A stretch of 64,000 nucleotides of DNA from Gammaproteobacteria bacterium. GTDB taxonomy: Bacteria; Pseudomonadota; Gammaproteobacteria; JACKNK01. Where the stretch lies: assembly GCA_049604295.1 (NCBI GenBank), contig JBMYTL010000007.1, positions 8,172 to 72,171 on the forward strand, given 5' to 3'. Below the pieces are notes generated by a model. It was not told where the DNA came from. It saw nothing but the letters and a program-made list of their open reading frames with translations, and searched no databases. Numbering within the stretch: the first letter of the stretch is position 1; each line of letters starts with the position of its first letter. Shown one piece after another: positions 2,164 to 39,354 of the stretch. The position numbers were made by a program, and so were the translations under genes.

Positions 2164-2475
2164 TCATGAAGCCGACGTACCACGAAGCCCCAAGGCATCA
2201 CCGACACCCATGGCATCGATCAGCTCGCGTAACTGCTTCGGCGCGGAGAAAAACTTCAAGTCTCCACCGGCGCGCCGGGCCGCACGCAGCCACTCCAACA
2301 TCAGAGCCAGACATGAACTGTCCACGCGCCCCAAGGCTTTGAGATCAACCAGATGCGTGCCCGGGCGTTTGACCAACTTGAGCCCGGCACCGTGCAGGGC
2401 CATGGCATTGTCCAGCCGTACATCGCCTACGACGGCGAAACCGGTATCACCGGGAATGAGGCGGGCCTCACTCAC
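2164..2475 (-). CDS. mlaB: STAS-domain protein MlaB (phospholipid ABC transporter accessory)
   Basis: 103-aa STAS-like ORF, 4-bp overlap with mlaC, last gene of the mlaFEDCB order. Confidence 0.72.
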   Translation of the reverse strand: MSEARLIPGDTGFAVVGDVRLDNAMALHGAGLKLVKRPGTHLVDLKALGRVDSSCLALMLEWLRAARRAGGDLKFFSAPKQLRELIDAMGVGDALGLRGTSAS

Positions 2476-3131
2476 GCCGAACCACCCGCTCGGGTCCCGG
2501 TATCCGCGTTGCGCTGCTCGAGTTCACCGATGAGGCCATCGAGACCGACCTTGCGGATCTTCTCGCTGAAGCTGGCCCGATAGTTGGTGATCAGACTGAT
2601 ACCGTCGATCAGCACATCGTTGACCTTCCACTGATCCTTGCGGAAGCGCATCAGGTAATCGATCGGGATCTCCGGCCCGCTGCTGCGCACCACCTCGGTA
2701 CGCACGGTGACCCGTTCACCGTCCGAACTGATCTTGGGTTCCTTGTAATTGATCACCTCATCCTTGAATTCCGACAAAGCGGACGAATAGGTGTGGATCA
2801 ACAGGGTCCGGAACTGGCGGATGAAGGCGATCTTCTCGTCCTTGGTGGCGCGGCGCCAATGCTTGCCCAGGACCAGCTGGGACATGGCGATGGAATCGAA
2901 GTGGGGTACGACGATCTCCTCGACCAGGGTGCGCACGCGGGCCGGATCCTTCTGGATGTTCTCCCGCTCAGCCTTGAGCGTCTCAATCATCTTTTCGGAC
3001 GTGCCGCGCACCACCGCCACGGCATCCTCGGCGGCCTTGCCGTCCTGCGCCCAGACCGGGGAGACGCCCACCAAGGCACCCAGGACGAACAGCGCGGAAA
3101 TCAGTCGGGTCATCATTGAGCCAATCCTCAT
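2472..3131 (-). CDS. mlaC: Periplasmic phospholipid-binding protein MlaC (Ttg2D family)
   Basis: Signal peptide LISALFVLGALVGVSPVWA followed by MlaC-family pattern (HFDSIAMSQLVLGKHWRRATKDEK ... DQWKVNDVLIDGISLITNYR). Confidence 0.85.
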   Translation of the reverse strand: MRIGSMMTRLISALFVLGALVGVSPVWAQDGKAAEDAVAVVRGTSEKMIETLKAERENIQKDPARVRTLVEEIVVPHFDSIAMSQLVLGKHWRRATKDEKIAFIRQFRTLLIHTYSSALSEFKDEVINYKEPKISSDGERVTVRTEVVRSSGPEIPIDYLMRFRKDQWKVNDVLIDGISLITNYRASFSEKIRKVGLDGLIGELEQRNADTGTRAGGSA

Positions 3132-3139
3132 CAGAAAAA

Positions 3140-3619
3140 CTATTTGTCGTCGGATTCCGAAGCCTTGCTGAACAGGAACTGTCCGATGACCTGTTCGAGC
3201 ACGAGGGCCGACTGCGTCCAGCGGATCTGACCGCCGTCCTTGAGGACATCTTCAGCGCCACCGGGTTCCAACCCGACGTAGTTTTCACCGAGCAGGCCCG
3301 CGGTGAATATGCTCGCGCTGGTATCTTCCGGAAACCCCTCATAGGCGGCATCGATATGCATCTCCACGACGGCCTCGAAGCGCTCGGGGTCGTAGTGGAT
3401 CGCACGCACCTTACCGATGCGCACGCCGCCGGACTTGACCGGGGCACGCACCTTGAGGCCACCGATGTTCTCGAAGCGTGCCGTTATGGTGTAGCCCTCA
3501 TTGTTCCCCAGGCTGGCCAGGTTGCTAACCTGCATGGCAAGCAGGAACAGGGCGACCAGTCCTACGGCGACAAAGGCGCCCACCGCGATCTCGGTTGCAC
3601 GAATGCTCATTACCATCAC
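3140..3619 (-). CDS. mlaD: MCE-domain protein MlaD
   Basis: N-terminal TM anchor plus MCE domain ([29 protein letters not shown]). Overlaps the mlaE stop. Confidence 0.85.
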
Positions 3620-4413
3620 TCTCCAAACATCAGGGCGGTGAGCACGAAATCGAGCCCCAATACCGCCAGCGAGGAATTGACCACGGTCCGGGTTGTGGCG
3701 CGACTCACCCCTTCGGACGTGGGCGTACAGTCGTAGCCTTCAAACACCGCAATCCAGGTAACCACGACCCCGAACACCAGACTTTTGACCACGCCGTTGA
3801 GAATGTCCTCAGTCACGCCCACCTTGGCCTGCATCTGGGACCAGAACGCGCCGTCGTCCACACCCAGCAGACCAACGCCGACCATGTAGCCACCGTAGAC
3901 CCCCAGGATGCTGAAAATCGCCGCCAGCAGCGGCATGGAGATGAAGCCGGCCAGGAAACGCGGTGCCACCACCCTGTGCATGGGATTGACCGCCATCATC
4001 TCCATTCCGGAAAGCTGTTCGGTGGCCTTCATCAAACCGATCTCCGCCGTCAGGGCTGAACCTGCCCGCCCCGCGAACAACAGAGCAGTCACCACGGGCC
4101 CCAGTTCGCGCACCAGGGAGAGTGCGACCATGACACCGAGCGATTCTTCCGCGCCGAAATCCACCAGCGTGTTGTAACCCTGTAGGCCCAGGACCATTCC
4201 CACGAACAGCCCGGACACCACGATGATGACCAGGGAGAGGACGCCGACGGAATAGATCTGGGCCAAAAGCAGGCGCGGACGCGCCAGAACCGTGACCGCT
4301 CCGATGAGCATGTTGAGGGCGAATACATGCCCCCGCCCCAGGCGCTCCAGGAATGACAGGGCACGCCGCCCCAGTCCTCGCAGGGTGCATTCGATCAGGT
4401 TCGGCTCAGCCAC
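3616..4413 (-). CDS. mlaE: Phospholipid ABC transporter permease MlaE
   Basis: Polytopic ORF. Proposed GTG start at 4413 ([15 protein letters not shown]) overlaps the mlaF stop by 8 bp, and the longer ORF-track N-terminus would run into mlaF. Confidence 0.82.
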
Positions 4414-5242
4414 GACCACTCTCCAACAGGTCCTGCGCCAGATCATCAGCCGGGTAGTGGAACGGCACGGGCCCATCAGGCTCACCATCCATGAACTGCC
4501 GCACCCAAGCTGATCGGGACCGCGCCAGATCATCGGCGGAACCGTGCTCGACGACTTTCCCCGCGGAGATCACGTACATGTAGTCGGAGATCGACGCGGT
4601 CTCCTTCACATCGTGGGAGACGACGATTCCCGACACGTGCAGGCTGTCGCTCATGCGCCGGATCAGGGACACCAACACCCCCATGGAGATCGGGTCCTGA
4701 CCGGTGAATGGCTCGTCGTACATGATCATCATCGGATCCAGGGCGATGGCGCGCGCCAAGGCGACACGCCGCGCCATACCCCCGGACAACTCACTGGGCA
4801 TGAGATCTCGGGCACCGCGCAGACCGACTGCGTGCAGTTTCATCAACACGAGATCCCGGATCATGGCCTCGGGGAGGTCGGTGTGTTCACGCAGGGGAAA
4901 GGCAACGTTGTCGAATACGGTCAGATCGGTAAGCAGGGCACCGCTCTGGAACAGCATTCCCATGCGGCGACGCAAGGCATACAGGGCGCTTTGGGAAAGC
5001 GAATGTACGTTCTGGCCATCCACACGGATGGAACCGGCATCGGGTTTGAGCTGGCCGCCGATCAGCTTGAGCAGCGTGGTCTTGCCCGTGCCTGAGGGCC
5101 CCATGATCGCCGTGACCTGGCCACGACGGATATCCATGTCGACGCCATCGAAGATGACCCTGGAGCCGCGTTTGAACCGCAGCCCGCGGATTTCAACCAG
5201 TACGTCACCGCCGCGCGGTTTGCCTGAGGCTGTCTGGCTCAT
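4406..5242 (-). CDS. mlaF: Phospholipid ABC transporter ATP-binding protein MlaF
   Basis: Walker [10 protein letters not shown], signature [14 protein letters not shown], Walker [12 protein letters not shown] at 5242 gives [21 protein letters not shown]. Confidence 0.9.
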
Positions 5243-5452
5243 GGGGAGGGGTATGGATCGAGGTTTGAGGTGTGGAGGGCGGCACGGACACCTGTGACCG
5301 CCACGGATGCGGCGACGGCGGCCCCCTGCGTCGCTCACCCGGGCCGGGCGGACGAGCGGCGATTCTCGGGGAGCGCCGGATGCGAGTCAATCACCGACAA
5401 CACCAATGATCGGGGTGAAACGTTCAGCGGACGCCCTCCCCGGCCAGGCGGC

Positions 5453-8777: not shown

Positions 8778-8828
8778 GACCACGGACTTCGTTCCAGCGC
8801 CCCCCATGAACCCACAGCCGCTCAGTGC

Positions 8829-12597: not shown

Positions 12598-12915
12598 ATG
12601 CAGATAACCGTGACTGGTCGCCATTTCGATGTCACCGACCCCATCCGCAACTACGTGAATGAAAAGATGGAGCGTCTGGAACGCCACTTCGATCACGTTC
12701 ATGAAGTTGATGTGGTGTTGAGCGTCGAAAAACTGGACCAGAAGGCCGAGGCCACGGTCCACGTCAACGGCAACACACTGCACGCGGAAGCACACCACGA
12801 GGACCTGTACGCGGCGCTGGACGCACTCATCGACAAACTGGATCGTCAGGTCCGCAAGTACAAGGAAAAGCTGACGGATCACCATCGCTCGGAAAGCGTC
12901 AAACGCGACATCTGA
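12598..12915 (+). CDS. hpf: Ribosome hibernation promoting factor
   Basis: MQITVTGRHFDVTDPIRNYVNEKMERLERHF. Immediately downstream of rpoN. Confidence 0.9.
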   Translation: MQITVTGRHFDVTDPIRNYVNEKMERLERHFDHVHEVDVVLSVEKLDQKAEATVHVNGNTLHAEAHHEDLYAALDALIDKLDRQVRKYKEKLTDHHRSESVKRDI

Positions 12916-12977
12916 CCCCGCAATGACCCTGCATGCGGGCCGGCGGACCCAGGTCTGTCGGCCCGCTCCGATCTACC

Positions 12978-13445
12978 ATGCAAATACATCAACTCCTGGC
13001 GCCCGCGCGCATCGCCTGTTCCGGACAGGCGTCCAGTAAGAAGCGGGTGCTGGAAAATCTGGCGGACCTGCTCGCCCAAGGCAGCGACCAGGCACTGGAT
13101 GCCACCGAAATCTTCGACAGCCTGCTGGGCCGCGAACGGCTGGGCAGCACCGGTCTGGGACACGGCATTGCATTACCCCACGGGCGTATGCCTTATCACG
13201 GTCCGCCACTGGCGGCGTTCGTCACCCTGAAAAACGGCGTGGACTTCGACGCCCTCGACGGTGAGCCCGTACGCATGCTTTTCGCTCTGGTGATCCCCGA
13301 GGAATCCACGGACGAACACTTACAGATACTCGCCAACCTGGCCCGCATGTTCAGCGATGGCGGGTTTCGCGAGCAGCTCATGGAGTGCGGAGCGCCGGAG
13401 GATGCCCTGAAAGCATTCGCGCACTGGGCCCCACAGGAGCCATGA
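12978..13445 (+). CDS. ptsN: Nitrogen-related PTS EIIA (EIIA-Ntr)
   Basis: EIIA-Ntr pattern with the phosphorylatable-His context GLGHGIALPHGR. Confidence 0.9.
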   Translation: MQIHQLLAPARIACSGQASSKKRVLENLADLLAQGSDQALDATEIFDSLLGRERLGSTGLGHGIALPHGRMPYHGPPLAAFVTLKNGVDFDALDGEPVRMLFALVIPEESTDEHLQILANLARMFSDGGFREQLMECGAPEDALKAFAHWAPQEP

Positions 13446-16031: not shown

Positions 16032-17786
16032 ATGGCGCTCGCACTTTCGGGATTGGGGATCGGCGATGGCATCGCCATAGGTGCCGCGCATATCCTCAAT
16101 CGGGAAATACCGGAGGTTCCGGAGTACTACCTCCCCCCCGAAGCCCGTGAGAAGGAAATCCGCCGTTTCCGCCTCTCCCTGGAACGGGCTCGAAATCAAC
16201 TCCAGGCGGTACGTGAGCGTATTCCCCCGGGCACCCGCGCCGATATCGCCGACTTCATTGATGCACACCTGCTCATGCTCGCGGATTCGGCGCTCAGCCA
16301 GGTTCCCGTTGCGATTATCCGCGAGCGCGGCTGTAACGCGGAGTGGGCCCTGAAGCAGCAATGCGATGACCTGTGTTCAGTCTTCGACGAAATGGAGGAT
16401 CCGTACCTGGCCACGCGCCGCGACGACGTGGTGCACGTGGTCACACGGGTACAACGCATCCTCGTCGACGGCGACAACGGCAGTGAACTCCATGGAGAAA
16501 CAGGACAGGAATCCCCGGAGCTGCCCCTGAAAGGGAAAATCGTCCTGGCCGAAGACCTCACGCCCGCCGACATGATCGTGTTGCAACACCAGGGCATTGC
16601 CGGGTTCGTAACCGAATACGGCGGCCCTCTCTCTCACACGGCGATCCTGGCACGCAACCTCAGAATCCCCGCCATTGTGGGTGCGCACTCCGCCCGCCGC
16701 TACCTCCATGACGGCGAGATGCTGGTACTCGACAGCTCGACCGGAGTCGTCCTGCAGGGGCTTGAAGACCCGGGTTTCGAGGAATTCCACTACCGCCAGC
16801 TTCAGGACATGCGGCAGCGGGAGTCGCTGCACGCCTTGCGTGCGGAACCGGCGATCAGCCGTGATGGCCATACCATCGCCCTGCGCGCCAACATCGAACT
16901 GCTGGAAGACGCCCATGCAGCCCGTGAGAACGGCGCGGACGGGGTCGGCCTGTACCGCACCGAGTTCCTGTTCATGAACCGGTCAGACACGCCCGATGAA
17001 GAGGAACACTTTCGCACCTACCGATCGGTGATTGAGGCATTGGATGGACAACCGCTGACCATCCGGACCCTGGATCTCGGCGCCGACAAACCACTCGCCA
17101 CTGACCGCAGTGTGCCCACCAACCCTGCCCTGGGTCTGCGTGCCGTACGTCTATGCCTCAAAGAGCCCGAGCTGTTCATGCCGCAGTTACGCGCCATTCT
17201 GCGCGCTTCGATCCATGGCCAGGTGCGTATCCTCATCCCCATGATCAGCACGCTGCGCGAGATCCAGCAGGTACGTGCCTTGATCCGCACGGCCCGTGAA
17301 GAACTGGAGCGCGCCGGTCACCCCATCGCCCCCGACATCCCCCTGGGTGCAATGATCGAGGTGCCCGCCGCGGCTCTGGCCGCTCATCGCTACGCGCGCG
17401 AACTGGACTTCCTCTCCATCGGGACCAATGACCTGATCCAGTACACATTGGCCATCGACCGGGTCGATGACGAGGTGAACTACCTTTACGACCCCATGCA
17501 TCCCGCCGTGATCAGGCTGCTCAACCTGACCCTGGAAGCGGCCAGATCGGCGGACATACCTGTCTCCCTATGTGGCGAGATGGCCAGTGACCCCCGCTAC
17601 ACCCGCTTCCTTCTGGCCCTGGGCCTGCGCGAGTTCAGCATGCATCCAGCGAGCCTTCTGGACGTGAAGAAAGTCGTGACCGAGACATCCATTGAAGAAC
17701 TGGGCGAACATGTTTCCCGGCTGCTGCACACGGAAGACGAGGGTGAAGCCATACGTGTTCTTCTTGAGGCCCTGAATACCGCCTGA
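16032..17786 (+). CDS. ptsI: Phosphoenolpyruvate-protein phosphotransferase (Enzyme I, no GAF domain)
   Basis: 584 aa, GGPLSHTAILARNLRIPAIVG (active His), PEP-utilising C-terminal barrel (GTNDLIQYTLAIDR, SLCGEMA). Confidence 0.92.
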   Translation: MALALSGLGIGDGIAIGAAHILNREIPEVPEYYLPPEAREKEIRRFRLSLERARNQLQAVRERIPPGTRADIADFIDAHLLMLADSALSQVPVAIIRERGCNAEWALKQQCDDLCSVFDEMEDPYLATRRDDVVHVVTRVQRILVDGDNGSELHGETGQESPELPLKGKIVLAEDLTPADMIVLQHQGIAGFVTEYGGPLSHTAILARNLRIPAIVGAHSARRYLHDGEMLVLDSSTGVVLQGLEDPGFEEFHYRQLQDMRQRESLHALRAEPAISRDGHTIALRANIELLEDAHAARENGADGVGLYRTEFLFMNRSDTPDEEEHFRTYRSVIEALDGQPLTIRTLDLGADKPLATDRSVPTNPALGLRAVRLCLKEPELFMPQLRAILRASIHGQVRILIPMISTLREIQQVRALIRTAREELERAGHPIAPDIPLGAMIEVPAAALAAHRYARELDFLSIGTNDLIQYTLAIDRVDDEVNYLYDPMHPAVIRLLNLTLEAARSADIPVSLCGEMASDPRYTRFLLALGLREFSMHPASLLDVKKVVTETSIEELGEHVSRLLHTEDEGEAIRVLLEALNTA

Positions 17787-17842
17787 GCACCCCCTGAACA
17801 CCGCTTGGACGTCGGCTGTACGCGCTTGGCGCTTACCCGCAA

Positions 17843-18472
17843 CTAGCGCTCCGTCGCATCGCGTGCGCGCAACGCCCCGATATGAGACTCCAGCCGATCC
17901 ATGAAACCGTCCAGACCCTGCTTGCGGATATCACTCTCGAAGTCGCGCCGTAATGTGATGACTGCGCTGATTCCGGCGATCACAACGTCATAGACACGCC
18001 ACTGGCCATCGACGCGGCGCATGGCGTAATTCACGGGGACCGCGGGACGATCACCAATCAGCAACTCCGTCCTGACCGTGGCGCGGTCCGTCTCTCGCGG
18101 CGGCAAAGGCGGCGGAAATTCGATTCGGATGTCATCAGCGTATTCCAATAAAGGCGCCGTGTAGGTCCGAAGCAGCATTTCCCGAAAAAGGCCCTCGAAG
18201 CGGCGCAACTGGACCTCGTCCGCATCGCGCGCGGCCCGCCCCAGGGCCAGGCGTGCCGTGAGCCTGAAATCGAGGGCCGGCATCAGAATCTGCTCGACAA
18301 GCGACATCAATGCCAGGCGATCGCCACTTAGGCGCCCGCGTTCCGCGCGCAGGGCCGTCAGAAGCTGATCGGAGGTATCCCGGACAACGGCGACCGCGGC
18401 ACCGTCCTGGGCCCGTACAGGCATTGCCACGATCACGATCAGAAACAGCGTCAGGAATAACGAACGCAGCAT
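17843..18472 (-). CDS. MlaC/Ttg2D-family periplasmic lipid-binding protein, paralogue 2
   Basis: Signal peptide MLRSLFLTLFLIVIVAMPVRA. MlaC pattern PALDFRLTARLALGRAARDADEVQ ... GQWRVYDVVIAGISAVITLRRDF ... GLDGFMDRL. Confidence 0.8.
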   Translation of the reverse strand: MLRSLFLTLFLIVIVAMPVRAQDGAAVAVVRDTSDQLLTALRAERGRLSGDRLALMSLVEQILMPALDFRLTARLALGRAARDADEVQLRRFEGLFREMLLRTYTAPLLEYADDIRIEFPPPLPPRETDRATVRTELLIGDRPAVPVNYAMRRVDGQWRVYDVVIAGISAVITLRRDFESDIRKQGLDGFMDRLESHIGALRARDATER

Positions 18473-18603
18473 GACTCACCCATCAGTGTCGGCCTGCGCG
18501 ACACCAACCGTGCCGCCCGGGCCATCCAGCTCACTCGGCCCGCGTGCGGCCCACAGTCAGCAGTGTTGCCCTGGCGAGCGCCCGGACGTGGCGAGGCCCC
18601 CGC

Positions 18604-19359
18604 CTACAACCCCTCAAGCTCGGCCTCGAGGGCCTCATCAAGCGCCTCGTCAATGCCAGGAGTCGGCGGATCACCGTCGTAGACCTTGTACATGCGGTTC
18701 TGTCTGTAGGCCTCGCGGGTGAATACGTAGGGATCCAGCGCTGCCTCGTCCCGAACCCGCGAAGCGGTCTTGAGGTTGGCTCGGCTGTTGACGATGCTGA
18801 GCACCGACAAAGGCCCGGTCACACCGCTATCCCAGATGTAGTACATGGGGTTGGTGATGAATGACATCGGAATGTTGCCCACGTCGCGCAGGTTGTTGGG
18901 GCCGGAAAAGGGCACAAACAGGTAGGGGCCCTCGCCCAATCCCCAGACCCCCAGGGTCTGCCCCAGGTCCTCATCGTGGGCCTCGAATCCCATGGGCGTC
19001 GCCACATCAAAGATGCCCAGTAGCCCGATGGTCGAATTGATCGCCAAGCGTGCCGTATCGGATGCACCCTGCTCCACCTTACCCTGCAGCAGGTCGTTCA
19101 CGATCACGTTCACGGTGCCGAGGTTGTCGAAGAAATTGGTCACCCCGTCACGAACGGGGTCCGGCGTGACCAGGATATAGAAGTCCGCGACGGGCTCGAG
19201 GAACGCACGATCAGCAAGGTCCGTCACCCCGTACATGATGCGGTTCACCGGCTCGATGGGGTCTGGGTCATAGGCACCGTAAGGATCGGTTGCGCAACCG
19301 TTAAGCCCCAGGGTCAGCAATGCCAGGAGCGCCAACACAGATTTTCGGAAAGCGTTCAT
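18604..19359 (-). CDS. mlaA: Outer-membrane lipoprotein MlaA/VacJ family
   Basis: Lipobox LTLGLNGC, and VacJ motifs DPIEPVNRIMYGVTDLADRAFLEPV, FFDNLGTVNVIVNDLLQGK. Confidence 0.87.
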   Translation of the reverse strand: MNAFRKSVLALLALLTLGLNGCATDPYGAYDPDPIEPVNRIMYGVTDLADRAFLEPVADFYILVTPDPVRDGVTNFFDNLGTVNVIVNDLLQGKVEQGASDTARLAINSTIGLLGIFDVATPMGFEAHDEDLGQTLGVWGLGEGPYLFVPFSGPNNLRDVGNIPMSFITNPMYYIWDSGVTGPLSVLSIVNSRANLKTASRVRDEAALDPYVFTREAYRQNRMYKVYDGDPPTPGIDEALDEALEAELEGL

Positions 19360-19407
19360 TTAATCCTCATTCTTGAATGCTGTTCCCGCCCCAGGAATCT
19401 AACTCGT

Positions 19408-19431
19408 TACAAACCCGGGAATGGTCCCGGG
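19408..19431 (-). terminator. Possible weak intrinsic terminator after the third MlaC-like gene
   Basis: Minus strand reads CCCGGGA-ccat-TCCCGGG followed by TTTGT. 7-bp GC stem but a short U-tract. Confidence 0.4.
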
Positions 19432-19478
19432 AAACGCCGCGGATGCGCCCACCGCGCGGACAGGCTCGGCGTTACGGT

Positions 19479-20117
19479 TCAGTGACGCCTGCGTGTCTCC
19501 AATTCGTTTTCCAAACTGTTTATCAGTCCGTCCACGCCCCCCTCCGACAGCACCGCATGGTAGCGCCGGTGAAGCAGGGCCAGTTCGGACACCCCATCGG
19601 CCAACACATTCACAACGCGCCAGCCCCGGTCCGAGCGGCGCAGTATATAGCTAAGGCGATGACGCTCACCATCTCCCGATACCCAGGTACTGTTCAGGTG
19701 GGTCAGGTCCAGACCATCCTTTCTTCCCCGCTGATACTGGAATTTTGCGCCCTCGAACGCCCCGGCGCGGGTGGCGTATTCCCCCACCATATAACGGGCA
19801 TGCACATCGATCAGGCGATTGCGCTCCGCCCGTCCCATCTCCGCCCAGGTCGGACCGAGGATGGCCTCGAGCATGAAATCGAGGTCATGGCCGCGGTTGA
19901 TCTCTGGGGCGAGCAGGGCCACCCGCTTGCGCCAGACATTCTCAGTGTCCGCCTCCAGGGCGGCGGCATCAATGAGGGCTGCATGCAGACTTTCCACGGT
20001 GGCCTTCGCCGAGCGCGAAGCGCCGAACACGGGAGCGCAAGAGAACGCCACGATCACCAGGGCCGACACCCACAACGACCGGGATAACCGCCGACCACCC
20101 GGACGTGAACCAAACAT
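19479..20117 (-). CDS. MlaC/Ttg2D-family protein, paralogue 3 (HpnM-like by context)
   Basis: 212 aa from ATG 20117 with signal peptide LWVSALVIVAFSCAPVFGA. MlaC pattern HDLDFMLEAILGPTWAEMGRAERN ... RGWRVVNVLADGVSELALLHRRY ... GVDGLINSL. The longer 403-aa ORF-track version crosses the dxs promoter region and is rejected. Confidence 0.72.
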   Translation of the reverse strand: MFGSRPGGRRLSRSLWVSALVIVAFSCAPVFGASRSAKATVESLHAALIDAAALEADTENVWRKRVALLAPEINRGHDLDFMLEAILGPTWAEMGRAERNRLIDVHARYMVGEYATRAGAFEGAKFQYQRGRKDGLDLTHLNSTWVSGDGERHRLSYILRRSDRGWRVVNVLADGVSELALLHRRYHAVLSEGGVDGLINSLENELETRRRH

Positions 20118-20195
20118 GCTGCGCTGCACTGAAACCATGGGGCGCAAATGATATTCTCTGCGGCTCTTTGCCGCACCCGGAAAACCCTCCCGCCC

Positions 20196-22100
20196 ATGAG
20201 CGCCGAAGCCCGCTTTCCGTTGTTGGAAAGCATCAACTCCCCCGAAGACCTGCGCCAGCTCGATTCCACGCAGTTGCAGGCGGTGGCGGACGAACTGCGT
20301 GCCTTCGTCATCGATTCGGTCTCTCGCACCGGCGGCCATTTCGCCGCCGGACTGGGCACCGTGGAACTGACCTGTGCCCTGCATCACGTATTCAACACCC
20401 CGGATGACCGTCTGGTCTGGGACGTCGGGCACCAGACCTATCCCCATAAGATCCTTACCGGAAGGCGTGACCGAATGGACAGCATCCGCAAACGTGATGG
20501 TCTGTCCGGTTTCCCGAAACGCGGAGAATCCCCGTACGACACCTTCGGTGTCGGGCATGCGGGCACCTCGGTGGGGGCCGCTCAAGGCATGGCGGAAGCC
20601 GCGCGCCTTACGGGGTCTGAGCGCAAAACAGTGGCGATCATCGGCGACGGTGCCATGACCTGCGGCATGGCCTTCGAAGCGCTCAACCATGCGGGTGACA
20701 TCGAATCCGACATGCTGGTCATCCTCAATGACAACAACATGTCCATCTCGCCCAACGTGGGCGCGTTATCGAACTACTTCACCCGCATCATGAGCGGCCC
20801 GCTGTATAGCACCATGCGCGAGGGCGGGAAGCAGTTGCTGCGTCATGTGCCGCCGGTGCGCGAGCTGGCAAAGCGCGCGGAGGAACACATGAAGGGCATG
20901 GTCAGCCCGGGCACCTTGTTCGAGGAAATGGGTTTTACCTACTACGGGCCCATAGACGGTCACGATCTCGGAACCCTGGTGAGCACCCTGCAGAACCTCA
21001 GAGCACTCAAGGGTCCGCGCCTGTTGCACATCGTCACGCGCAAGGGCAAAGGCTACGAGCCCGCGGAGAGCGACCCGGTGAAATGGCATGGGGTCGCTCC
21101 CTTTGACCCGCAAACCGGCAAAGGTGCCCCGCCTCCCGCTCCGGGCAAGGCGCGTCCCAGCTATACCGCCATATTCGGCCAGTGGCTCTGTGACATGGCC
21201 GAAACCGACCCCCGGCTGGTCGGCATCACGCCGGCCATGCGCGAGGGATCAGGTCTCGTCGAGTTCGCCAAGCGTTTTCCGGATCGCTATTACGACGTCG
21301 CGATCGCTGAACAGCATGCGGTGACCCTGGCGGCGGGCCTTGCCTGTGACGGTGTCAAACCCGTCGTGGCCATCTACTCGACATTCCTGCAAAGAGCCTA
21401 CGACCAGGTCGTGCATGACGTGGACCTTCAAAACCTGCCGGTCCTGTTCGCGGTGGACCGCGCCGGCCTGGTGGGGCCCGATGGCGCCACCCACGCGGGC
21501 AGTTTCGACCTGTCCTATCTGCGCTGTCTGCCGAATATGGCGATCCTCGCCCCCAGCGACGAGAACGAGTGTCGGCAGATGCTGTACACCGGCTTTATGC
21601 ATGACGGGCCCTGCACGGTCCGCTATCCCAGGGGCACCGGCCCGGGCGTGGACATTCAACAGGCCATGACGGCACTACCCTGGGCCACCGGCGAAGTACG
21701 ACGTGAGGGCCGGGGCGTGGCGTTGTTGAGCTTCGGCGCGGTTCTACCGGCGGTCATCGAGGCCGCTGAGGAACTCAATGCCACGGTCGCGAACATGCGT
21801 TTCATCAAACCGCTCGACGAAACGCTGGTCACACGGCTTGCCCAGGAACACGATGTGCTGGTGACCGTTGAGGACAACGCGGTCCTCGGCGGCGCGGGCT
21901 CCGCCGTGAATGAGTGTCTTCTGCGCAATGCACACGACGCCGCCTCCAGGCCATCAGTGCTCAACCTCGGACTCCCTGACCGCTACCAGGATCACGGTTC
22001 GCGCGAGGAACTGCTGCGGGAGGCAGGACTTGATCGTGACGGGATCGTCAGCGCCGTCAGGGCTGTGCTTACTGAGTCGCAACCAGAATCTGCGGCGTGA
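20196..22100 (+). CDS. dxs: 1-deoxy-D-xylulose-5-phosphate synthase
   Basis: [17 protein letters not shown]-terminus, [17 protein letters not shown] motif [18 protein letters not shown] ... LNDN. Confidence 0.96.
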
Positions 22101-24735
22101 GCAGGACGGCCACGGCGTAAGTCGGCGTCATGGCGGCGACCAGCAGCCCGAGCACCACGATCTCGCGCATCGCATCGCCCCCCAGGGGCAGCGCGAAGCT
22201 GCCGCCGACCAGTGCCACGAGAACCGTGGCCAAAACGACCCATTGCGGTCGCATCAGGGGTGCGGACATCAGATTTTCCATGACGGGAAGCCCCGCGCGC
22301 CCCTGCACGAGCACCTGCATCGCTGACGCCATACCCAGGAGCAGGATCAGCGGCAGGAAAGCGATGTTCACGTAGTTCCATGCCTCATCGGACAACCAGA
22401 TCCAGGCCGACACCGTGAACACAAGGCCCATCAAGGCCCCGCCCATGAGCAACCCATCGGTCCAACGCCAGCCCACGAGCATCACCAGCGCCACACCGGC
22501 CATAAGCATGAGAAGCACCCCCTTGGCCATGCCCCAGCCCACCGTGGCCGTGGCGCGGTAGATATCCACCGGGGCTCCAATGATCGCGCGGTGTACACGC
22601 CGCACACCTTCCATGTAATCGGCCATACCCACCACGTTGTCGACAGCGCTGGATGGCATGATTTCCATACGTAGCAAGCCATCGCTGGACTTCCAGTAAT
22701 CCACCAGGTCCCGTGGCAGTCTTTTCTCCGTCAGCTCTCCGGTGTTCAGGGCCTCGGAAACCAGCCCATACGCTACCGGATACGTACCCAGAATTGCCCG
22801 TTCCACGTGTCGGATGAGGTTGCGCCGACCGGCAAGATCGTTTTTGAGCCTGTCGCGCAACACACCACTGGTTTCAGCCAATCGGCCGACCGCGGTGGCG
22901 AGCTCGGGAGGGATCCTCTGACCATTGAGAGACCGCAGGGCGGCACGCAGGTCCGGCAGACTTTTCATAAGGTCCGCACCCGCCCCGCGTGGCCCCTGCG
23001 TCCGCGCCGTCTCGAAACCACCCATCAGCAGGCGCAGGCGGGCGAGACGCTTCAGGCGTCCCTCCTGGCCCGGGGGCAGATAGGACAGCAAAGAATCGGT
23101 GCGTGACACCGCGTTGGAGGCATTGAGCCGCTCGGACAGGGCCGCCAGCTCGGAAAAATCATTGACCTGTGTGTTGAGATGCCACGGTGACACCACCGGC
23201 TCGGCCAATAACTCACGGAAGGTCACGGCGGCTTCCCCTCTGATTCCGTAGATGCTCAGGGGGTTGCCGTCGAAGGCCTTGAGGGGAATCACCCCCGCGC
23301 CAATCACGCTCAGCAGCAGCAGCGGCAACAAGGCCATGCGGCGATAGTTAAAGCCCATCCCCGCCAGCACGGCGCCCATGCTCACGCCCTGGATCGAGTC
23401 GCGCGGACCTTCCGGAGCTTTGAACATGTGCAGGAACGCCGGCATGAAGGTGACTGTCACCGCCAAAGCGATCACCCCGCCCGCAGCGCTGACAGTGCCG
23501 AACTCGACGATGCCATCGCGGCCCAGGATGATCAGCGCAAAGCCGGAGCCGAACGCGGTCACCGCGGCCATGATCATCGCCGCACCGGTGCGCATCCCGG
23601 CACCTACCAGGGCCCGGTCATTGGGCAGGGCAGCGATACGGCCGGAAAAATAGGCCATTCCCAGATTGATGGAGAAGTGCGTGGCCAAAGCGGCACTGAC
23701 CAGCACGGCCGCTCCGCTGAGCAGATTCACCGTGCCGAAAAAAAACACCGCCAGGCCCACGGCCGCCGTGCCCGCCAACAGGGCCGATATTCCAACGGCC
23801 ACGGCAATCCTCATGGAGCGGATACCCAGATAGAGCATCAGGCCCGCCAGCCCCGTGGCCAGGAACAGGGCCACCCAATTGAACTCCGCCAGCTCCGAAT
23901 CAGATACCGACAGCAGACCCTGGCCGGTGATCCGCACACGAACCCCTTCGCCAAGGCTGAGGGACCCCGCCGCGGCACGCAGACGATCAGCCAGTTTCTT
24001 AAGGGCCTGGCCCTCACGCTGGGCGGGATCGGGAGCGATGCGCAGGATGCGCCGGTGACCACTATCCGGCCGACGGTCAAAAACCAGGTCCAACCAGGAC
24101 ACCGGCGTGCTGTTGCCTTTCAGTGCCGCCTCCATGGCATCAGTGAGTGCATCCAACACCGGCACGGGCAGCAGGTCCCCCGCATGCTCCCGACGGGCCA
24201 ACTCCGTCAGCCGCGTGGTCAGATGCCCGATGCGCGGCTTCTCGGGCAGCCCGCCCATGAGCGGTTGCAGAACCAGGAGCCGACCCTCGAAACGGCGCAT
24301 CTGCTCCTCGTCGAGACTGAGCAGGCGCAATCCCGCAAGCTCCGAAACACCTTGCGGGTCGTAGACATGCACCACGCCCGGGTCACGACCGATACGTTCG
24401 ATCAGGGCCGCGGCCGCCTCGTGGACGGGCTCTTCCGCCGGTCCATCGATCACCGCGAGAATCGGTTCATGCGCCAAGGGAAACCGCGCGCGGAAATCAC
24501 GCTCCACCTGACGGCGGTTGAGATCAGGCTTCGCGAGGGACAGGGGGCTGGCATCAAAACCCACGCGGGCGTGGATGTACTGTACGGACAGCACCAATGC
24601 GACCAGGGCCGCCGGTACGACCAACCAGGCCATACGCCGGGCGAAGCCCATCCAGGCCACCACGGCCCGAGCCAGGGACAGCGTGATCAGGTCTGAACGC
24701 AGTCCATCGGGCGATTGCGAAGCACCGGAGGCCAT
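22069..24735 (-). CDS. RND/MMPL-superfamily transporter, HpnN-like
   Basis: 888 aa, two 6-TM bundles each preceded by a large periplasmic loop. Start codon shares one base with the squalene synthase stop (TGATG). Confidence 0.78.
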
Positions 24736-25799
24736 CAGGCCCGGATCTCCGGTTGCGGCCCGACCGCGGTGACGCGGCGTTCGCGCTCAGGCTCGAAGCG
24801 GGGAAGCCCGCGCGACATCAACGCCAACATCAACCGCAACATGCCATCCGAGCCGGCGCTGATCTTCGACCCGAGCACGGTGGCCCGCACCGAACGCCGA
24901 CTGATCTTGACCTCGGACCCAGCCCGGAAACCACGCTGAGCATTGACGCGACGCAGGGTCAGAACGGCCATGCCGATGGCCCAGAGGCAGAAGTTGCGGA
25001 TTCCCCGCTCGTGCGCCGGTATGTACAAAGTGAAACGCAGGGCATTGCGTAAGTGCCCCATGGCAATCGCGATCAGGTCGGCAAGCCCCGCCTCAAATCG
25101 GGGGTCGGCGGTATCCGGATCGAGCTCTGACAGATCGAACCCATGAGCTGCGAAAACGTCCCGCGGCAACCAGCACACCCCCCGCGCACGATCGTCCCAT
25201 ATGTCCTTGATGATGTTGGTCATCTGCAAGCCCTGACCGAAGGACACCGACAAAGGGGCCATCGCATCCCGGTTGACGGCGATCTCCTCGGAATAGTCGC
25301 AGAACAGCCCCGTCAGACACTCGCCAACGACGCCGGCCACAAAGTAGCAGTACGCATCGAGCTCGGGCAGATCAGCGAGACCATGAACCGATGCCCCGGC
25401 CTGAAAACGGGCCATACCCCGCGACATGATGCGCACGCAGCGGGCCAGCTCCGCGCGCTGCGCCTCGGAAAAGCCCGCCGTGATGGCGAGTACCCGGGGT
25501 GTTTCCCCAATGAGCTCGTGCTCCATGGGCAAGGTGCTGTCAGACAACAGGGGCTTGAGCGCCTGCGCGAATTGCGCGGAATCCCCTTCACCCATGGTGA
25601 TATCGACCAGCCACTCGGAAAAACGGCTGGTCTGGGCAGGATCCAGGGCAGGGTCGTCCTCGATGGTGTCCGCGATACGGCAGAGCAGGTACGCATTGGC
25701 CACCACACGGTGCAGACGGACCGGAAGCTGGGGAATGGTGAGCGCGAAGGTCCTGGAGACGCCCTGCAGCATCAGATCCTGGAACTGATCGTCGTCCAT
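24735..25799 (-). CDS. sqs: Squalene synthase (farnesyl-diphosphate farnesyltransferase, eukaryote-like SQS type)
   Basis: GVSRTFALTIPQLP, first Asp-rich box YLLCRIADTIEDD, YCYFVAGVVGECL, second box QMTNIIKDIWDD. ATG at 25799 preferred over TTG at 25853. Confidence 0.85.
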   Translation of the reverse strand: MDDDQFQDLMLQGVSRTFALTIPQLPVRLHRVVANAYLLCRIADTIEDDPALDPAQTSRFSEWLVDITMGEGDSAQFAQALKPLLSDSTLPMEHELIGETPRVLAITAGFSEAQRAELARCVRIMSRGMARFQAGASVHGLADLPELDAYCYFVAGVVGECLTGLFCDYSEEIAVNRDAMAPLSVSFGQGLQMTNIIKDIWDDRARGVCWLPRDVFAAHGFDLSELDPDTADPRFEAGLADLIAIAMGHLRNALRFTLYIPAHERGIRNFCLWAIGMAVLTLRRVNAQRGFRAGSEVKISRRSVRATVLGSKISAGSDGMLRLMLALMSRGLPRFEPERERRVTAVGPQPEIRA

Positions 25800-25978
25800 G
25801 GCCTGTACGTTGGCGTGTGAAAGGGGAATGGTCGGCACCGGTTGCGGCCGCAATGGATGGGCGCGCGCGAACGGGATGCCGGACCGGCTATCCCGCGCGG
25901 CGGGTCAGGCGCGCAAGTATATTATGGCGGTCGTCCCGAATCGCCCCCGCCTGCCTCAAAAACGCCCTTAACGCACCC

Positions 25979-26494
25979 ATGAGCATGTCCCACGAAGCCA
26001 CTGACGAAGAATTCGAAGAGAAGAGCAAGTCCCAGGTCAAAAGGGAGATGCAGGCCCTCACGGACATGGGCCGTTCACTGGTCGAACTGAACAGCTCGTG
26101 GCTGGGCCGTATCGAGCTACCCGATGAAGTGCGCCGGGCGGTCGACGATGCCCGCGCCATGTCCAGCCACGGCGCGCGCAAACGCCAGATCAAATACCTG
26201 GGCAAGCTGTTGCGCTCGGTCGATTCGCAGGCCATCGGTGAGGCACTACAGGCCCTGCACCACGAGGGACGTGAGGCGGCCGCGACCGAGAAACGCATAA
26301 CCCAGTTGCGCGACCGGCTCGTCGAAGAGGGTGATGCGGCCCTGGGAGCGGTCTTCGAACGCTACCCTCAGGGCGATCGGCAGCAGCTACGCCAATTGGT
26401 CCGCGCCGCCCGTGCCGAGCACGCAGCCAACCGCCCGCCCTCATCAAGCCGGGCCCTGTTACGCCTGCTGCGGCAGTGGGAAGCGGAAATCTGA
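25979..26494 (+). CDS. yjgA: Ribosome-associated protein YjgA/DarP (DUF615)
   Basis: SKSQVKREMQALTDMGRSLVEL ... ARKRQIKYLGKLLR pattern typical of YjgA. Confidence 0.8.
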   Translation: MSMSHEATDEEFEEKSKSQVKREMQALTDMGRSLVELNSSWLGRIELPDEVRRAVDDARAMSSHGARKRQIKYLGKLLRSVDSQAIGEALQALHHEGREAAATEKRITQLRDRLVEEGDAALGAVFERYPQGDRQQLRQLVRAARAEHAANRPPSSSRALLRLLRQWEAEI

Positions 26495-27514: not shown

Positions 27515-27943
27515 TCAGAAACTCTTATGAACCTCGATGGCCATGCCGTCACCGGCCGGCCCACCCGGCACCAGGTCGATGTGCTCGGAGGCCACGCCAA
27601 GCGTGGTCAACCAGTCACGTAATTCCCGCGCCCACAAGGTTCCCTGGTCGCCACCGGGATAACGGATCACCATGCGCCCGCCCGGAGTATCCAGCCAACG
27701 CCGCACGGCATCGCGGATCGCGCGGTTGGCGCTCACGCCCAGCGCGCTGCGCGGACGCAACCAATCGGTCGCCGGGATGAGGAACACGGGCGCATCGGCC
27801 ATGGCGGCCCCGGTTGCCGTCGGCGACGCCTGGCCACCCCCATGCGACGCACCCCACGCCTGAGCGGGGCCCAGGGTCTGCAGGGGCAGGATCAGCAAGA
27901 GCATCGCCAGCCGGGCAGAGAAAATACGTCGCTGTTCAATCAT
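27515..27943 (-). CDS. Small secreted hypothetical protein translationally coupled to yhdP
   Basis: 142 aa from ATG 27943 (MIEQRRIFSARLAMLLLILPLQTLGPAQA signal peptide). Start overlaps the yhdP stop by 8 bp. No family recognised. Confidence 0.5.
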   Translation of the reverse strand: MIEQRRIFSARLAMLLLILPLQTLGPAQAWGASHGGGQASPTATGAAMADAPVFLIPATDWLRPRSALGVSANRAIRDAVRRWLDTPGGRMVIRYPGGDQGTLWARELRDWLTTLGVASEHIDLVPGGPAGDGMAIEVHKSF

Positions 27944-31877: not shown

Positions 31878-31949
31878 GACGGGGCCGTGCCGACGCACGG
31901 CGCGGCGGATACGATCCAGTGGATGTCGAGAGGCGGCATCAGGAGCGTG

Positions 31950-39334: not shown

Positions 39335-39354
39335 GGTAGTGGGGGGGTTCCGCG

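What the first reader, a model, noticed from the sequence alone, without database searches (positions are those of the whole stretch)
17843..25799. Squalene synthase, HpnN-like RND pump, dxs, and a vacJ gene flanked by two extra MlaC-family carriers: candidate complete inner-to-outer-membrane route for squalene-derived lipids
Seen in the sequence:
- A eukaryote-type SQS (both Asp-rich boxes intact) is translationally coupled (TGATG) to an 888-aa RND/MMPL transporter.
- dxs, the entry step of the MEP isoprenoid pathway, converges on that transporter.
- Divergent from dxs lies MlaC-like paralogue 3, then vacJ/mlaA (an OM lipoprotein), then MlaC-like paralogue 2.
- The canonical mlaFEDCB operon with its own mlaC sits at 2164-5242, so these two carriers are extra copies.

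Established knowledge: HpnN exports hopanoids towards the outer membrane, and an MlaC-family protein (HpnM) is genomically associated with hopanoid genes. MlaA-MlaC-MlaFEDB is a periplasmic lipid shuttle.

Inference: an IM pump, soluble MlaC-like carriers and a VacJ-like OM acceptor next to the lipid biosynthesis genes would form a dedicated Mla-style shuttle for hopanoid or squalene-type lipids. No periplasmic or OM components of that route have been defined experimentally, to my knowledge. No squalene-hopene cyclase lies in the window.
Basis: partly seen in the sequence, partly recalled or inferred. Interest (0 to 1): 0.65.

Follow-up and report, generated by a model that had tools for sequence, protein, structure and literature searches.

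The report
Hopanoid gene cluster stripped to squalene transport
This stretch is a cut-down hopanoid-lipid gene cluster that has lost every gene for making hopanoids but keeps squalene synthesis, a very divergent inner-membrane pump, a periplasmic carrier and an outer-membrane lipoprotein, so it may move squalene itself across the cell envelope.

Summary
All six genes are present at the stated coordinates, SQS and the RND gene overlap in TGATG, and mlaFEDCB lies at 2164-5338.

An HpnN + HpnM (MlaC-like) + HpnS (MlaA-like) hopanoid shuttle was already proposed from genomics (Lawrence et al. 2025, PMC12324291), and that paper notes that TIGRFAM GenProp0761 already lists a VacJ-like lipoprotein.

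What is distinctive:
- **Collinear but stripped.** Related loci read SQS-SHC-HpnG-(PhyH-HpnN-HpnA...)-<dxs-HpnH-HpnI-HpnM-HpnS. Here only SQS-HpnN*-<dxs-HpnM*-HpnS remain, plus an added canonical-type MlaC. No trace of a hopanoid enzyme is found in the 64 kb.
- **The pump sits where the cyclase sits elsewhere**, and it is a near-orphan. It is 22-26% identical to true HpnNs, which share a median of 40% with each other. About 45% of family-invariant residues are changed, including the TM4 Asp, which is His353 here.
- **It is not decaying.** It keeps the HpnN fold (TM 0.81-0.85) and is under purifying selection (dN/dS about 0.07).

Best reading: a hopanoid-derived envelope shuttle retuned for squalene. 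Whether shc exists elsewhere in the genome could not be tested, so an ordinary hopanoid function remains a serious rival.

Verdict: a new variant of a known, still hypothetical, kind of system.

The parts
24735..25799 (-). Squalene synthase of the one-enzyme (eukaryote-like Sqs) type, 354 aa
   Evidence: Pfam SQS_PSY scores 181 bits. TIGR01559 is the best NCBIfam model at 95 bits, below its cut-off of 287. The best PDB matches are true SQS (7WGH, 1EZF) at about 60 bits, against 34-36 for CrtM and PSY. More than 8000 homologues share 56-64% identity. Of the six looked up, five lie directly upstream of SHC; in the sixth (L054) HpnG follows and the contig ends.
22069..24735 (-). HpnN-derived RND (HAE-3) inner-membrane transporter, 888 aa, translationally coupled to SQS, with His353 in place of the TM4 Asp
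   Evidence: TIGR03480 scores 369 bits against a cut-off of 752, aligned over the full length. An exhaustive HMMER search found one close cluster (82% identity) and everything else at 31% or less. The nearest hits are true HpnNs scoring 930-1007 bits. The AF2 model matches HpnN 5KHN and 6WU0 at TM 0.80-0.85, against 0.55-0.59 (normalised by query length) for MmpL4/5. dN/dS is about 0.07. 36 of 78 family-invariant columns are changed.
20196..22100 (+). dxs (1-deoxy-D-xylulose-5-phosphate synthase), convergent with the pump, 32-bp 3' overlap
   Evidence: TIGR00204 scores 875 bits against a cut-off of 466. It holds the same position and orientation as dxs in the hopanoid superclusters L055, L057, L008-L013 and the P0018 contig.
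19479..20138 (-). HpnM-type periplasmic MlaC-fold lipid carrier (212-219 aa depending on start), with a signal peptide
   Evidence: TIGR03481 HpnM scores 121 bits (cut-off 160) against 17 for E. coli-type MlaC, which is the pattern of true HpnMs. It is closest to the HpnMs of hpnH-hpnI-hpnM-mlaA loci. The AF2 model (pLDDT 85) matches MlaC and Ttg2D structures at TM 0.72-0.81 normalised by target length. It is nearly an orphan in the word-based search. dN/dS is 0.18.
18604..19359 (-). MlaA/VacJ-family outer-membrane lipoprotein in the HpnS position (251 aa, lipobox LNGC)
   Evidence: Pfam MlaA scores 228 bits. Its closest homologues (49-55% identity) lie in dxs-hpnH-hpnI-hpnM-mlaA loci or directly after SQS. 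An NJ tree places it in that clade with 46% bootstrap. It is 94% identical to its L007 counterpart, with dN/dS 0.033.
17843..18472 (-). Extra canonical-type MlaC paralogue (MlaC2, 209 aa, signal peptide ...VRA|QDG)
   Evidence: Pfam MlaC scores 139 bits. It is 38% identical (128 bits) to the operon MlaC and only 41 bits to the HpnM-like protein. Canonical MlaCs of mlaED loci score about equally against MlaC1 and MlaC2. It is also present in L007 (72% identity, dN/dS 0.09).
2164..5338 (-). Canonical mlaFEDCB operon, given as context; its MlaC1 is at 2472-3131
   Evidence: Pfam finds ABC_tran, MlaE, MlaD, MlaC and STAS domains.

Best explanation
The block is a pared-down descendant of the gammaproteobacterial hopanoid supercluster.

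**What it keeps and what it lacks**
- It keeps precursor supply: dxs and a one-step squalene synthase.
- It keeps the three envelope-trafficking genes: an HpnN-derived RND pump, an HpnM-type MlaC-fold periplasmic carrier and an HpnS-type MlaA lipoprotein.
- It has gained one canonical-type MlaC.
- It lacks every hopanoid-specific enzyme gene at the locus: shc, hpnG, hpnH, hpnI, hpnA, hpnL and the PhyH-family gene.

**Proposed mechanism**
1. SQS makes squalene at the inner membrane. That the enzyme is intact and conserved is shown.
2. The co-translated pump extracts the C30 hydrocarbon from the inner membrane and hands it through its periplasmic domain to the HpnM-like carrier. This step is inferred by homology to HpnN and to the published HpnN-HpnM-HpnS model.
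3. The carrier docks on the MlaA-type lipoprotein at the outer membrane. This step is inferred.

**Cargo**
The cargo is most likely squalene itself rather than a hopanoid. The cyclase and side-chain genes are gone from their syntenic places. The pump, which is the substrate-handling part, went through a burst of change and was then fixed by purifying selection. The cargo is inferred, not shown.
For: **Collinearity with hopanoid superclusters**
- L055 reads SQS-SHC-HpnG-<dxs-HpnH-HpnI-HpnM-HpnS.
- L057 reads SQS-SHC-HpnG-PhyH-HpnN-HpnA-<HpnL-NTP_transf-<dxs.
- The P0018 contig reads RNaseG-CN_hydrolase-SQS-SHC-HpnG-<dxs-HpnH. Its flanking genes (RNase G, CN hydrolase) also lie beside the window locus, where YhdP and DarP are additionally present.
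- Nine loci read dxs-hpnH-hpnI-hpnM-mlaA.
- The window and L006/L007 keep only SQS-HpnN*-<dxs-HpnM*-MlaA-MlaC2.

**Absence of hopanoid enzymes**
- No SHC, HpnG, H, I, A, L or PhyH similarity appears in the 64 kb at E<=1.
- The intergenic gaps are too small to hold remnants.

**Position of the pump**
- SQS is translationally coupled to the pump (TGATG). In the P0018 contig SQS is coupled to SHC by a 4-nt overlap.

**Selective divergence (window versus hopanoid-locus homologues | among those homologues)**
- dxs 64|70, SQS 60|66, MlaA 50|53, HpnM 23|40, HpnN 24|40.
- The exhaustive search shows no relative between 82% and 31% identity.
- 46% of HpnN-invariant columns are changed, including Asp to His353.

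**Not decay**
- dN/dS is 0.03-0.18 for the five genes where it could be calculated. For SQS synonymous sites were saturated, so only dN (0.16) could be estimated.
- The HpnN fold and the MlaC fold are kept.

**An independent link between SQS and MlaA without a cyclase nearby**
- Five genomes have SQS immediately upstream of an MlaA of the same clade with no SHC within 10 kb. The pair is translationally coupled in L022.

**Precedent**
- Squalene is reported as an abundant membrane lipid in the haloalkaliphilic gammaproteobacterium Thioalkalivibrio ALJ15 (PMC3072093, PMC8092127).
Against: - Only 64 kb of a MAG could be read, so shc and hpnGHI could lie elsewhere in the genome. Hopanoid gene order is fluid: L054 has SQS followed by HpnG, and the group A loci lack SQS-SHC next to dxs.
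- The divergence of HpnM is not unique. L010, inside a complete hpnH-hpnI-hpnM-mlaA locus, also scores below the cut-off (113 bits).
- Support for an HpnS-type clade is modest (46% NJ bootstrap). That clade includes an MlaA with no isoprenoid neighbours (L021), so it may partly reflect taxonomy.
- The MlaA here could be the genome's only MlaA.
- No experiment has yet shown that HpnM or HpnS carries any triterpenoid.
- Replacing the TM4 Asp could mean altered or lost proton coupling.
- The AF2 model of the pump was built from an alignment of true HpnNs, so it leans towards that fold.
Confidence: 0.5

Rival explanations
1. This is an ordinary hopanoid trafficking module. The genome still makes hopanoids from shc and hpnG/H/I encoded elsewhere. 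The block is the HpnN-HpnM-HpnS system proposed by Lawrence et al., and the pump's divergence is lineage-specific drift or adaptation to a lineage-specific hopanoid.
For: - All three trafficking genes are homologous to, and collinear with, hopanoid-locus genes.
- The closest SQS homologues all belong to hopanoid producers' loci.
- Hopanoid gene order varies between genomes (L054; the group A loci lack SQS-SHC next to dxs).
- Most of the genome could not be examined.
Against: - Three separate blocks of hopanoid-specific genes are all missing from their collinear positions, while the transport and squalene-supply genes stayed.
- SQS-SHC adjacency holds in 6 of the 7 SQS contexts seen in hopanoid loci, but here the pump takes that place.
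- The pump is further from every true HpnN (22-26% identity) than the most distant true HpnNs are from each other (32%).
Confidence: 0.3
2. The adjacency is a historical leftover and the genes no longer work together. MlaA and MlaC2, and perhaps the HpnM-like protein, serve the general Mla phospholipid pathway with mlaFEDCB. The HpnN-like protein, having lost the TM4 Asp, was repurposed for another lipid or for a non-transport role.
For: - MlaC2 is canonical-type.
- A canonical mlaFEDCB operon without an mlaA lies in the same window, so this MlaA may be the cell's only one.
- L021 shows an MlaA of the same clade without isoprenoid neighbours.
- The Asp to His353 change and the loss of about 45% of invariant residues.
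Against: - SQS and the pump are translationally coupled in both lineage members.
- The HpnM-like, MlaA and MlaC2 genes stay together under purifying selection.
- SQS-MlaA coupling recurs independently in other genomes.
- The HpnM-like protein keeps the HpnM score pattern rather than the MlaC one.
Confidence: 0.13
3. The SQS-like enzyme does not make squalene. It makes dehydrosqualene, phytoene-like or presqualene products, and the module handles a carotenoid-type or other isoprenoid lipid.
For: - The protein scores below the curated SQS cut-off (95 against 287 bits).
- The SQS_PSY family includes CrtM, CrtB and HpnD.
Against: - Its best matches by NCBIfam and PDB are true squalene synthases, well above HpnD, HpnC, CrtB and CrtM.
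- Five of the six homologues looked up (58-63% identity) lie directly upstream of SHC in loci without hpnCDE, so they must supply squalene there.
- No crtN or crtI-type desaturase was found next to the block.
Confidence: 0.05

Closest known systems
HpnN-HpnM-HpnS hopanoid trafficking hypothesis (Lawrence, Pan, Ollikainen & Belin 2025, bioRxiv, PMC12324291; the paper notes that TIGRFAM GenProp0761 lists a VacJ-like lipoprotein)
   Same: The three protein families are the same (HAE-3 RND pump, MlaC-fold carrier, MlaA-family lipoprotein) and sit in the same relative gene order next to dxs and SQS. The proposed logic is the same: pump, then soluble carrier, then outer-membrane lipoprotein.
   Different: - No shc, hpnG, hpnH, hpnI or hpnA at the locus.
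- The pump sits directly after SQS and is translationally coupled to it.
- The pump fails both curated HpnN cut-offs and has His for the TM4 Asp.
- The carrier is below the HpnM cut-off.
- An extra canonical-type MlaC follows the MlaA.
HpnN of Burkholderia multivorans and B. pseudomallei (PDB 5KHN, 5KHS, 6WU0) and of Rhodopseudomonas palustris. From my own knowledge, Doughty et al. 2011 showed that HpnN is needed for hopanoid localisation to the outer membrane.
   Same: Full-length collinear alignment and the same predicted fold (TM 0.80-0.85). It is the only solved family matched by sequence.
   Different: 22-24% identity. D344 (numbering checked by counting in the alignment) is His353. The TM10 and TM11 motifs are altered. 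That D344, T818 and T819 form the proton relay is recalled from Kumar et al. 2017, which I could not read here.
MlaA-MlaC-MlaFEDB phospholipid shuttle of E. coli
   Same: MlaA-family lipoprotein and MlaC-fold carriers. A complete mlaFEDCB operon lies in the same window.
   Different: The candidate inner-membrane partner here is an RND pump, not the MlaFEDB ABC complex. The HpnM-like carrier scores only 17 bits on the E. coli-type MlaC model. The presumed cargo is a headgroup-less C30 isoprenoid.
BstA-BstB-BstC sterol transport system of Methylococcus capsulatus
   Same: It has the same logic: an RND-type inner-membrane protein plus periplasmic and outer-membrane-associated binding proteins for a squalene-derived lipid. 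That description is from my own knowledge; only the NCBIfam BstA model was tested here.
   Different: BstA similarity is marginal (33 bits against a cut-off of 1400). True HpnNs score 185-250 bits on BstA. No relative of BstB or BstC was looked for.

Membership tests
HpnN (hopanoid RND transporter; TIGR03480, NF052374) | Score at or above the curated family cut-off | tested here: not met
   369 bits against 751.85, and 250 bits against 1100. Its nearest relatives score 930-1007 bits.
HpnN (hopanoid RND transporter; TIGR03480, NF052374) | Full-length HAE-3 architecture and HpnN fold | tested here: met
   The profile is aligned over positions 2-843 of 862. Foldseek TM is 0.80-0.85 to 5KHN, 5KHS and 6WU0, against 0.55-0.59 (by query length) for the next family. 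The model was built from an alignment of true HpnNs.
HpnN (hopanoid RND transporter; TIGR03480, NF052374) | Conserved TM4 Asp (D344 of B. multivorans) and the family-invariant residues | tested here: not met
   The Asp is His353 in the window and in P0136. 36 of 78 invariant columns are changed.
HpnN (hopanoid RND transporter; TIGR03480, NF052374) | Genomic association with shc and other hpn biosynthesis genes | tested here: not met
   No shc, hpnG, H, I or A in the 64 kb. Only positional homology with the HpnN of superclusters L004 and L057 remains.
HpnN (hopanoid RND transporter; TIGR03480, NF052374) | Transports hopanoids to the outer membrane | not testable with these tools
   This needs genetics and lipid fractionation.
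HpnM (TIGR03481; MlaC-like carrier of hopanoid loci) | Score at or above the curated cut-off, and much higher than on the MlaC model | tested here: inconclusive
   120.8 bits against a cut-off of 160.1, so not met. The HpnM-minus-MlaC difference is 104, within the range of true HpnMs (81-193) and far from MlaC1 (27) and MlaC2 (19).
HpnM (TIGR03481; MlaC-like carrier of hopanoid loci) | MlaC fold, exported, and encoded directly upstream of the MlaA-type gene beside dxs | tested here: met
   AF2 with Foldseek gives TM 0.72-0.81 (by target length) to MlaC and Ttg2D. An N-terminal signal sequence is present. The order is collinear with L055 and L008-L013.
HpnS (MlaA-family lipoprotein of hopanoid loci; Lawrence et al. 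2025) | MlaA domain and a lipoprotein signal | tested here: met
   PF04333 scores 227.6 bits. The signal ends ...LGLNGC.
HpnS (MlaA-family lipoprotein of hopanoid loci; Lawrence et al. 2025) | Distinct from the canonical MlaA, either as a separate clade or as a second copy in the genome | tested here: inconclusive
   It falls in a clade with all MlaAs linked to hopanoid loci or to SQS, but the bootstrap is 46% and L021 in that clade has no such neighbours. Copy number in the genome could not be tested.
Squalene synthase (TIGR01559) | Curated cut-off | tested here: not met
   94.6 bits against 286.75. The model is centred on eukaryotic enzymes.
Squalene synthase (TIGR01559) | Both Asp-rich motifs, closest to SQS rather than CrtM, CrtB or HpnD, and homologues that feed SHC | tested here: met
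   DTIEDD and KDIWDD are present. SQS scores 95 bits, above HpnD 70, HpnC 45 and CrtB 37. PDB SQS matches score 60 bits against 34-36. SQS-SHC adjacency holds in five of the six homologue contexts.
Dxs (TIGR00204) | Curated cut-off | tested here: met
   875.4 bits against 465.95.
Canonical MlaC (PF05494; NF011697), for MlaC2 | MlaC domain and closest to operon-encoded MlaCs | tested here: met
   Pfam scores 139 bits. It is 38% identical to MlaC1. Canonical MlaCs score equally against MlaC1 and MlaC2. The E. coli-centred equivalog cut-off (195) is missed by both MlaC1 (82) and MlaC2 (59).

The most novel reading that the evidence does not exclude
This lineage has lost hopanoid synthesis altogether and has converted the ancestral hopanoid export machinery into a dedicated route for squalene. 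The route would run from an RND pump through an MlaC-fold carrier to an MlaA-type lipoprotein and would deliver the acyclic hydrocarbon to the outer membrane. The pump would have been rebuilt around a TM4 histidine. As far as I know, this would be the first dedicated trafficking system for squalene in bacteria. It would also be a natural experiment showing that HpnN, HpnM and HpnS act as one lipid-handling unit. The SQS-MlaA pairs in other gammaproteobacteria would be a minimal version of the same idea.
Probability: 0.35. Interest if true: 0.75.

Novelty: new variant of a known kind. Interest (0 to 1): 0.55.

Why it matters
How bacteria move headgroup-less triterpenoids from the inner to the outer membrane is unsolved. 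Only HpnN has genetic and structural support. HpnM and HpnS are bioinformatic proposals.

This locus separates transport from hopanoid chemistry. The trafficking genes survive under strong selection next to squalene synthase after the cyclase and side-chain genes have gone.

- **If shc is truly absent**, the module can be tested directly as a squalene carrier. The retuned pump then marks which residues define cargo or energy coupling in HAE-3 transporters.
- **If shc is present elsewhere**, the locus is still a compact three-component version of the proposed hopanoid shuttle, convenient for reconstitution.

It also bears on the use of squalene as a permeability barrier in halophilic and alkaliphilic bacteria.

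Tried and rejected
**Searches that gave nothing**
- Looked for shc and other hpn genes in the rest of the window: none.
- Tried to reach DNA beyond the window through edge proteins. Only short Logan contigs were retrievable (L001, L058), and one protein was not on record.
- The metagenome scan with the pump found nothing.
- The P0018 contig has gene calls but no DNA.
- Rfam, tRNA and promoter/terminator scans of the block showed nothing above background.

**Ideas rejected**
- A decaying pseudo-transporter is rejected. The ORF is intact, dN/dS is about 0.07, and the His353 motif is conserved in the relative.
- Membership of another MMPL or BstA family is rejected. BstA scores 33 bits and HAE3 21 bits, and only HpnN is matched in PDB by sequence and by fold.

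**Claims toned down**
- Parallel hyper-divergence of pump and carrier: a true-locus HpnM (L010) is about as divergent, so only the pump's divergence is exceptional.
- A clean HpnS clade: the bootstrap is only 46%.

**Could not be done**
- Kumar et al. 2017 (PMC5488925) is not held, so the functional role of D344, T818 and T819 rests on my memory. Only the residue numbering was checked.
- Pocket volumes of the three MlaC paralogues could not be compared, because no coordinates are returned.

Full report
**Observation.**
- MlaC-family protein, 17843-18472(-).
- MlaA/VacJ lipoprotein, 18604-19359(-).
- A second MlaC-family protein, 19479-20138(-).
- dxs, 20196-22100(+).
- An 888-aa RND protein, 22069-24735(-).
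- An SQS-type enzyme, 24735-25799(-), with both Asp-rich boxes.

The SQS stop and the RND start share one base in TGATG. dxs and the RND gene converge with a 32-bp overlap. A complete mlaFEDCB operon lies at 2164-5338.

The surroundings are core envelope and housekeeping genes: kdsD/C, lptCAB, rpoN, PTS-Ntr genes, DarP, a CN-hydrolase, YhdP and RNase G. No squalene-hopene cyclase or other hopanoid enzyme is detectable anywhere in the 64 kb, even at E<=1.

**What each part is.**
- *SQS.* It is closest to true squalene synthases both in NCBIfam (95 bits, against HpnD 70, HpnC 45 and CrtB 37) and among solved structures (60 bits, against 34-36 for phytoene synthase and CrtM). It has more than 8000 homologues at 56-64% identity.
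- *The RND protein.* It aligns end to end with the HpnN model but scores 369 bits against a cut-off of 752. The only solved relatives by sequence are the Burkholderia HpnN structures. An AlphaFold model (pLDDT 75) matches them at TM 0.80-0.85, against 0.55-0.59 (by query length) for MmpL4/5.
- *The gene next to dxs.* It is HpnM-type. It scores 121 bits on HpnM and 17 on MlaC, the pattern of seven HpnMs taken from real hopanoid loci. The operon MlaC1 scores 109 and 82, and the third copy, MlaC2, scores 78 and 59, both a canonical pattern. MlaC2 is 38% identical to MlaC1. The HpnM-like model has the MlaC fold.
- *MlaA.* It has a lipoprotein signal and a strong MlaA domain.

**Context in other genomes.** Five of the six SQS homologues looked up (58-63% identical) lie directly upstream of SHC and HpnG in hopanoid loci. 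In the sixth (L054) HpnG follows SQS and the contig then ends. Three loci are decisive.
- L055 reads SQS-SHC-HpnG-<dxs-HpnH-HpnI-HpnM-MlaA.
- L057, the context of the second-best true HpnN hit, reads SQS-SHC-HpnG-PhyH-HpnN-HpnA-<HpnL-NTP_transferase-<dxs.
- The P0018 contig reads RNase G-CN hydrolase-SQS-SHC-HpnG-<dxs-HpnH. Its flanking genes (RNase G, CN hydrolase) also lie beside the window locus, where YhdP and DarP are additionally present.

A scan of one genome per GTDB species with the window's MlaA returned 47 loci.
- The closest homologues (49-55%) lie in dxs-hpnH-hpnI-hpnM-mlaA blocks (nine loci), or directly after an SQS with no cyclase, pump or carrier within 10 kb (five loci).
- MlaAs linked to mlaE-mlaD, and MlaAs of taxa such as Pseudomonas, Pseudidiomarina or SAR86, are more distant and fall outside that clade in NJ trees.
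- Bootstrap support for the clade is only 46%. One member, L021, has no isoprenoid neighbours.

Read in the same orientation, the window is SQS-HpnN*-<dxs-HpnM*-MlaA-MlaC2. This is the hopanoid supercluster with the same order and strands, minus every hopanoid-specific enzyme gene, plus one added MlaC. It could have arisen in two ways: by three deletions from an L057-like order, or by the pump replacing SHC-HpnG in a P0018-like order. In either case the pump now sits in the translationally coupled slot that the cyclase holds in the P0018 contig, where SQS and SHC overlap by 4 nt. A second MAG of the lineage, GCA_049604855.1 (contigs L006 and L007), has the same arrangement.

**The pump is an extreme outlier but is functional.**
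- An exhaustive HMMER search of representatives of about 15 billion proteins found one cluster at 82% identity, which is the L006 fragment. Everything else was at 31% identity or less.
- The nearest hits are bona fide HpnNs scoring 930-1007 bits.
- Percent identity of the window protein to hopanoid-locus homologues, against identity among those homologues, is: dxs 64|70, SQS 60|66, MlaA 50|53, HpnM 23|40, HpnN 24|40.
- The window pump is further from every true HpnN (at most 26%) than the two most distant true HpnNs are from each other (32%).
- Of 78 columns invariant among twelve true HpnNs, 36 are changed.
- The TM4 Asp, D344 of B. multivorans, is His353. I verified the numbering by counting in the alignment. 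The same His is present in the relative.
- The TM10 and TM11 motifs are also altered.

Between the two lineage members synonymous sites are near saturation. dN/dS is about 0.07 for the pump, 0.18 for the HpnM-like gene, 0.03 for MlaA, 0.09 for MlaC2 and 0.04 for dxs. For SQS synonymous sites were saturated and only dN (0.16) could be estimated. This points to a past burst of change followed by constraint, not decay.

The carrier is also almost an orphan in the word-based search: itself, one relative at 68%, then 31-32%. However, an HpnM inside a complete hopanoid locus (L010) is about as divergent. I therefore treat only the pump's divergence as exceptional.

**Mechanism.**
- *Shown:* an intact, conserved squalene synthase co-translated with an HpnN-fold pump; an exported MlaC-fold protein of HpnM type; an MlaA-family lipoprotein; conserved linkage of all of these.
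- *Inferred by homology:* the pump takes a C30 isoprenoid from the inner membrane, the HpnM-like carrier ferries it across the periplasm, and the MlaA-type lipoprotein is the outer-membrane station. This rests on HpnN's role in delivering hopanoids to the outer membrane (my own knowledge) and on the model of Lawrence et al.
- *Inferred from locus history:* the cargo is squalene rather than a hopanoid. Diploptene, the simplest hopanoid, is also a headgroup-less C30 hydrocarbon, so the step from one cargo to the other is small.
- *Open:* MlaC2 may let the same MlaA serve phospholipid traffic with MlaFEDB.

Squalene as an abundant membrane lipid has a precedent in a haloalkaliphilic gammaproteobacterium, Thioalkalivibrio ALJ15 (PMC3072093, PMC8092127). 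SQS-MlaA pairs without a nearby cyclase, translationally coupled in a soda-lake Ectothiorhodospiraceae MAG (L022), give an independent link between squalene synthesis and this lipoprotein.

**Rivals.** The main rival is that shc and hpnGHI lie elsewhere in the genome and this is an ordinary, if divergent, hopanoid shuttle. I could not test this. Lesser rivals are that the Mla-type genes simply serve the general Mla pathway, or that the synthase makes something other than squalene.

**Comparison with what is known.** The general idea is already published as a genomic hypothesis (PMC12324291). That paper cites Tripathi et al. 2025 on extra mlaC copies next to hopanoid genes and notes that TIGRFAM GenProp0761 lists a VacJ-like lipoprotein. 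None of the papers I read reports experimental proof for the periplasmic or outer-membrane steps.

The locus works like that system. It fails formal membership of HpnN (cut-offs, TM4 Asp, association with shc) and is below the HpnM cut-off.

I rate it a new variant of a known kind. It is of moderate to good interest because it may uncouple the transport module from hopanoid chemistry.

Noticed in passing
L004 9345-11435; L009 520-4536; L057 7429-9922: Related gammaproteobacterial hopanoid superclusters carry a phosphonate-type cassette between hpnN/hpnA and dxs. It comprises a PEP mutase with an NTP-transferase domain, a TPP-dependent decarboxylase-like enzyme, a class-V aminotransferase and HpnL (LPG_synthase_TM). 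This hints at a phosphonate head group on hopanoids or another lipid.
   Followed up: no
L014 8846-10735; L016, L018, L019; L022 8949-10750: Five genomes have a squalene synthase immediately upstream of an MlaA-type lipoprotein with no SHC, HpnN or MlaC hit within 10 kb. L014, whose neighbours were annotated, sits among unrelated genes (UbiD, sensors, PntAB). In L022, a soda-lake Ectothiorhodospiraceae MAG, the two genes overlap in ATGA.
   Followed up: partly
window 2164-5338, 7067-10736 and 27936-31898: The 64-kb window is unusually rich in envelope-lipid transport genes. mlaFEDCB, kdsD/kdsC, lptC/lptA/lptB and a 1320-aa YhdP all lie within 25 kb of the SQS block.
   Followed up: no
L054 10001-11793: In one hopanoid locus SQS is followed directly by HpnG (PNP_UDP_1) rather than SHC, before the contig ends. 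This shows that the position of the cyclase is not fixed.
   Followed up: no
window 39317-40648(+), 37401-37985(-), 12879-13163(-): These ORFs have coding-like GC3 but no Pfam match. I did not examine whether they are real genes.
   Followed up: no
window 1-64000: No tRNA gene and no Rfam family at gathering threshold occurs in the whole window. No sigma-70-like promoter match occurs in 17600-26100, although the divergent dxs and HpnM-like starts are only 57 bp apart.
   Followed up: no
window 47911-49956 and 5989-7158: A membrane H+/Na+-pyrophosphatase and a Na+/Ca2+-exchanger family protein are present. MlaA has an acidic C-terminal tail. These may fit a saline habitat, but the sample's origin was not established.
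   Followed up: no
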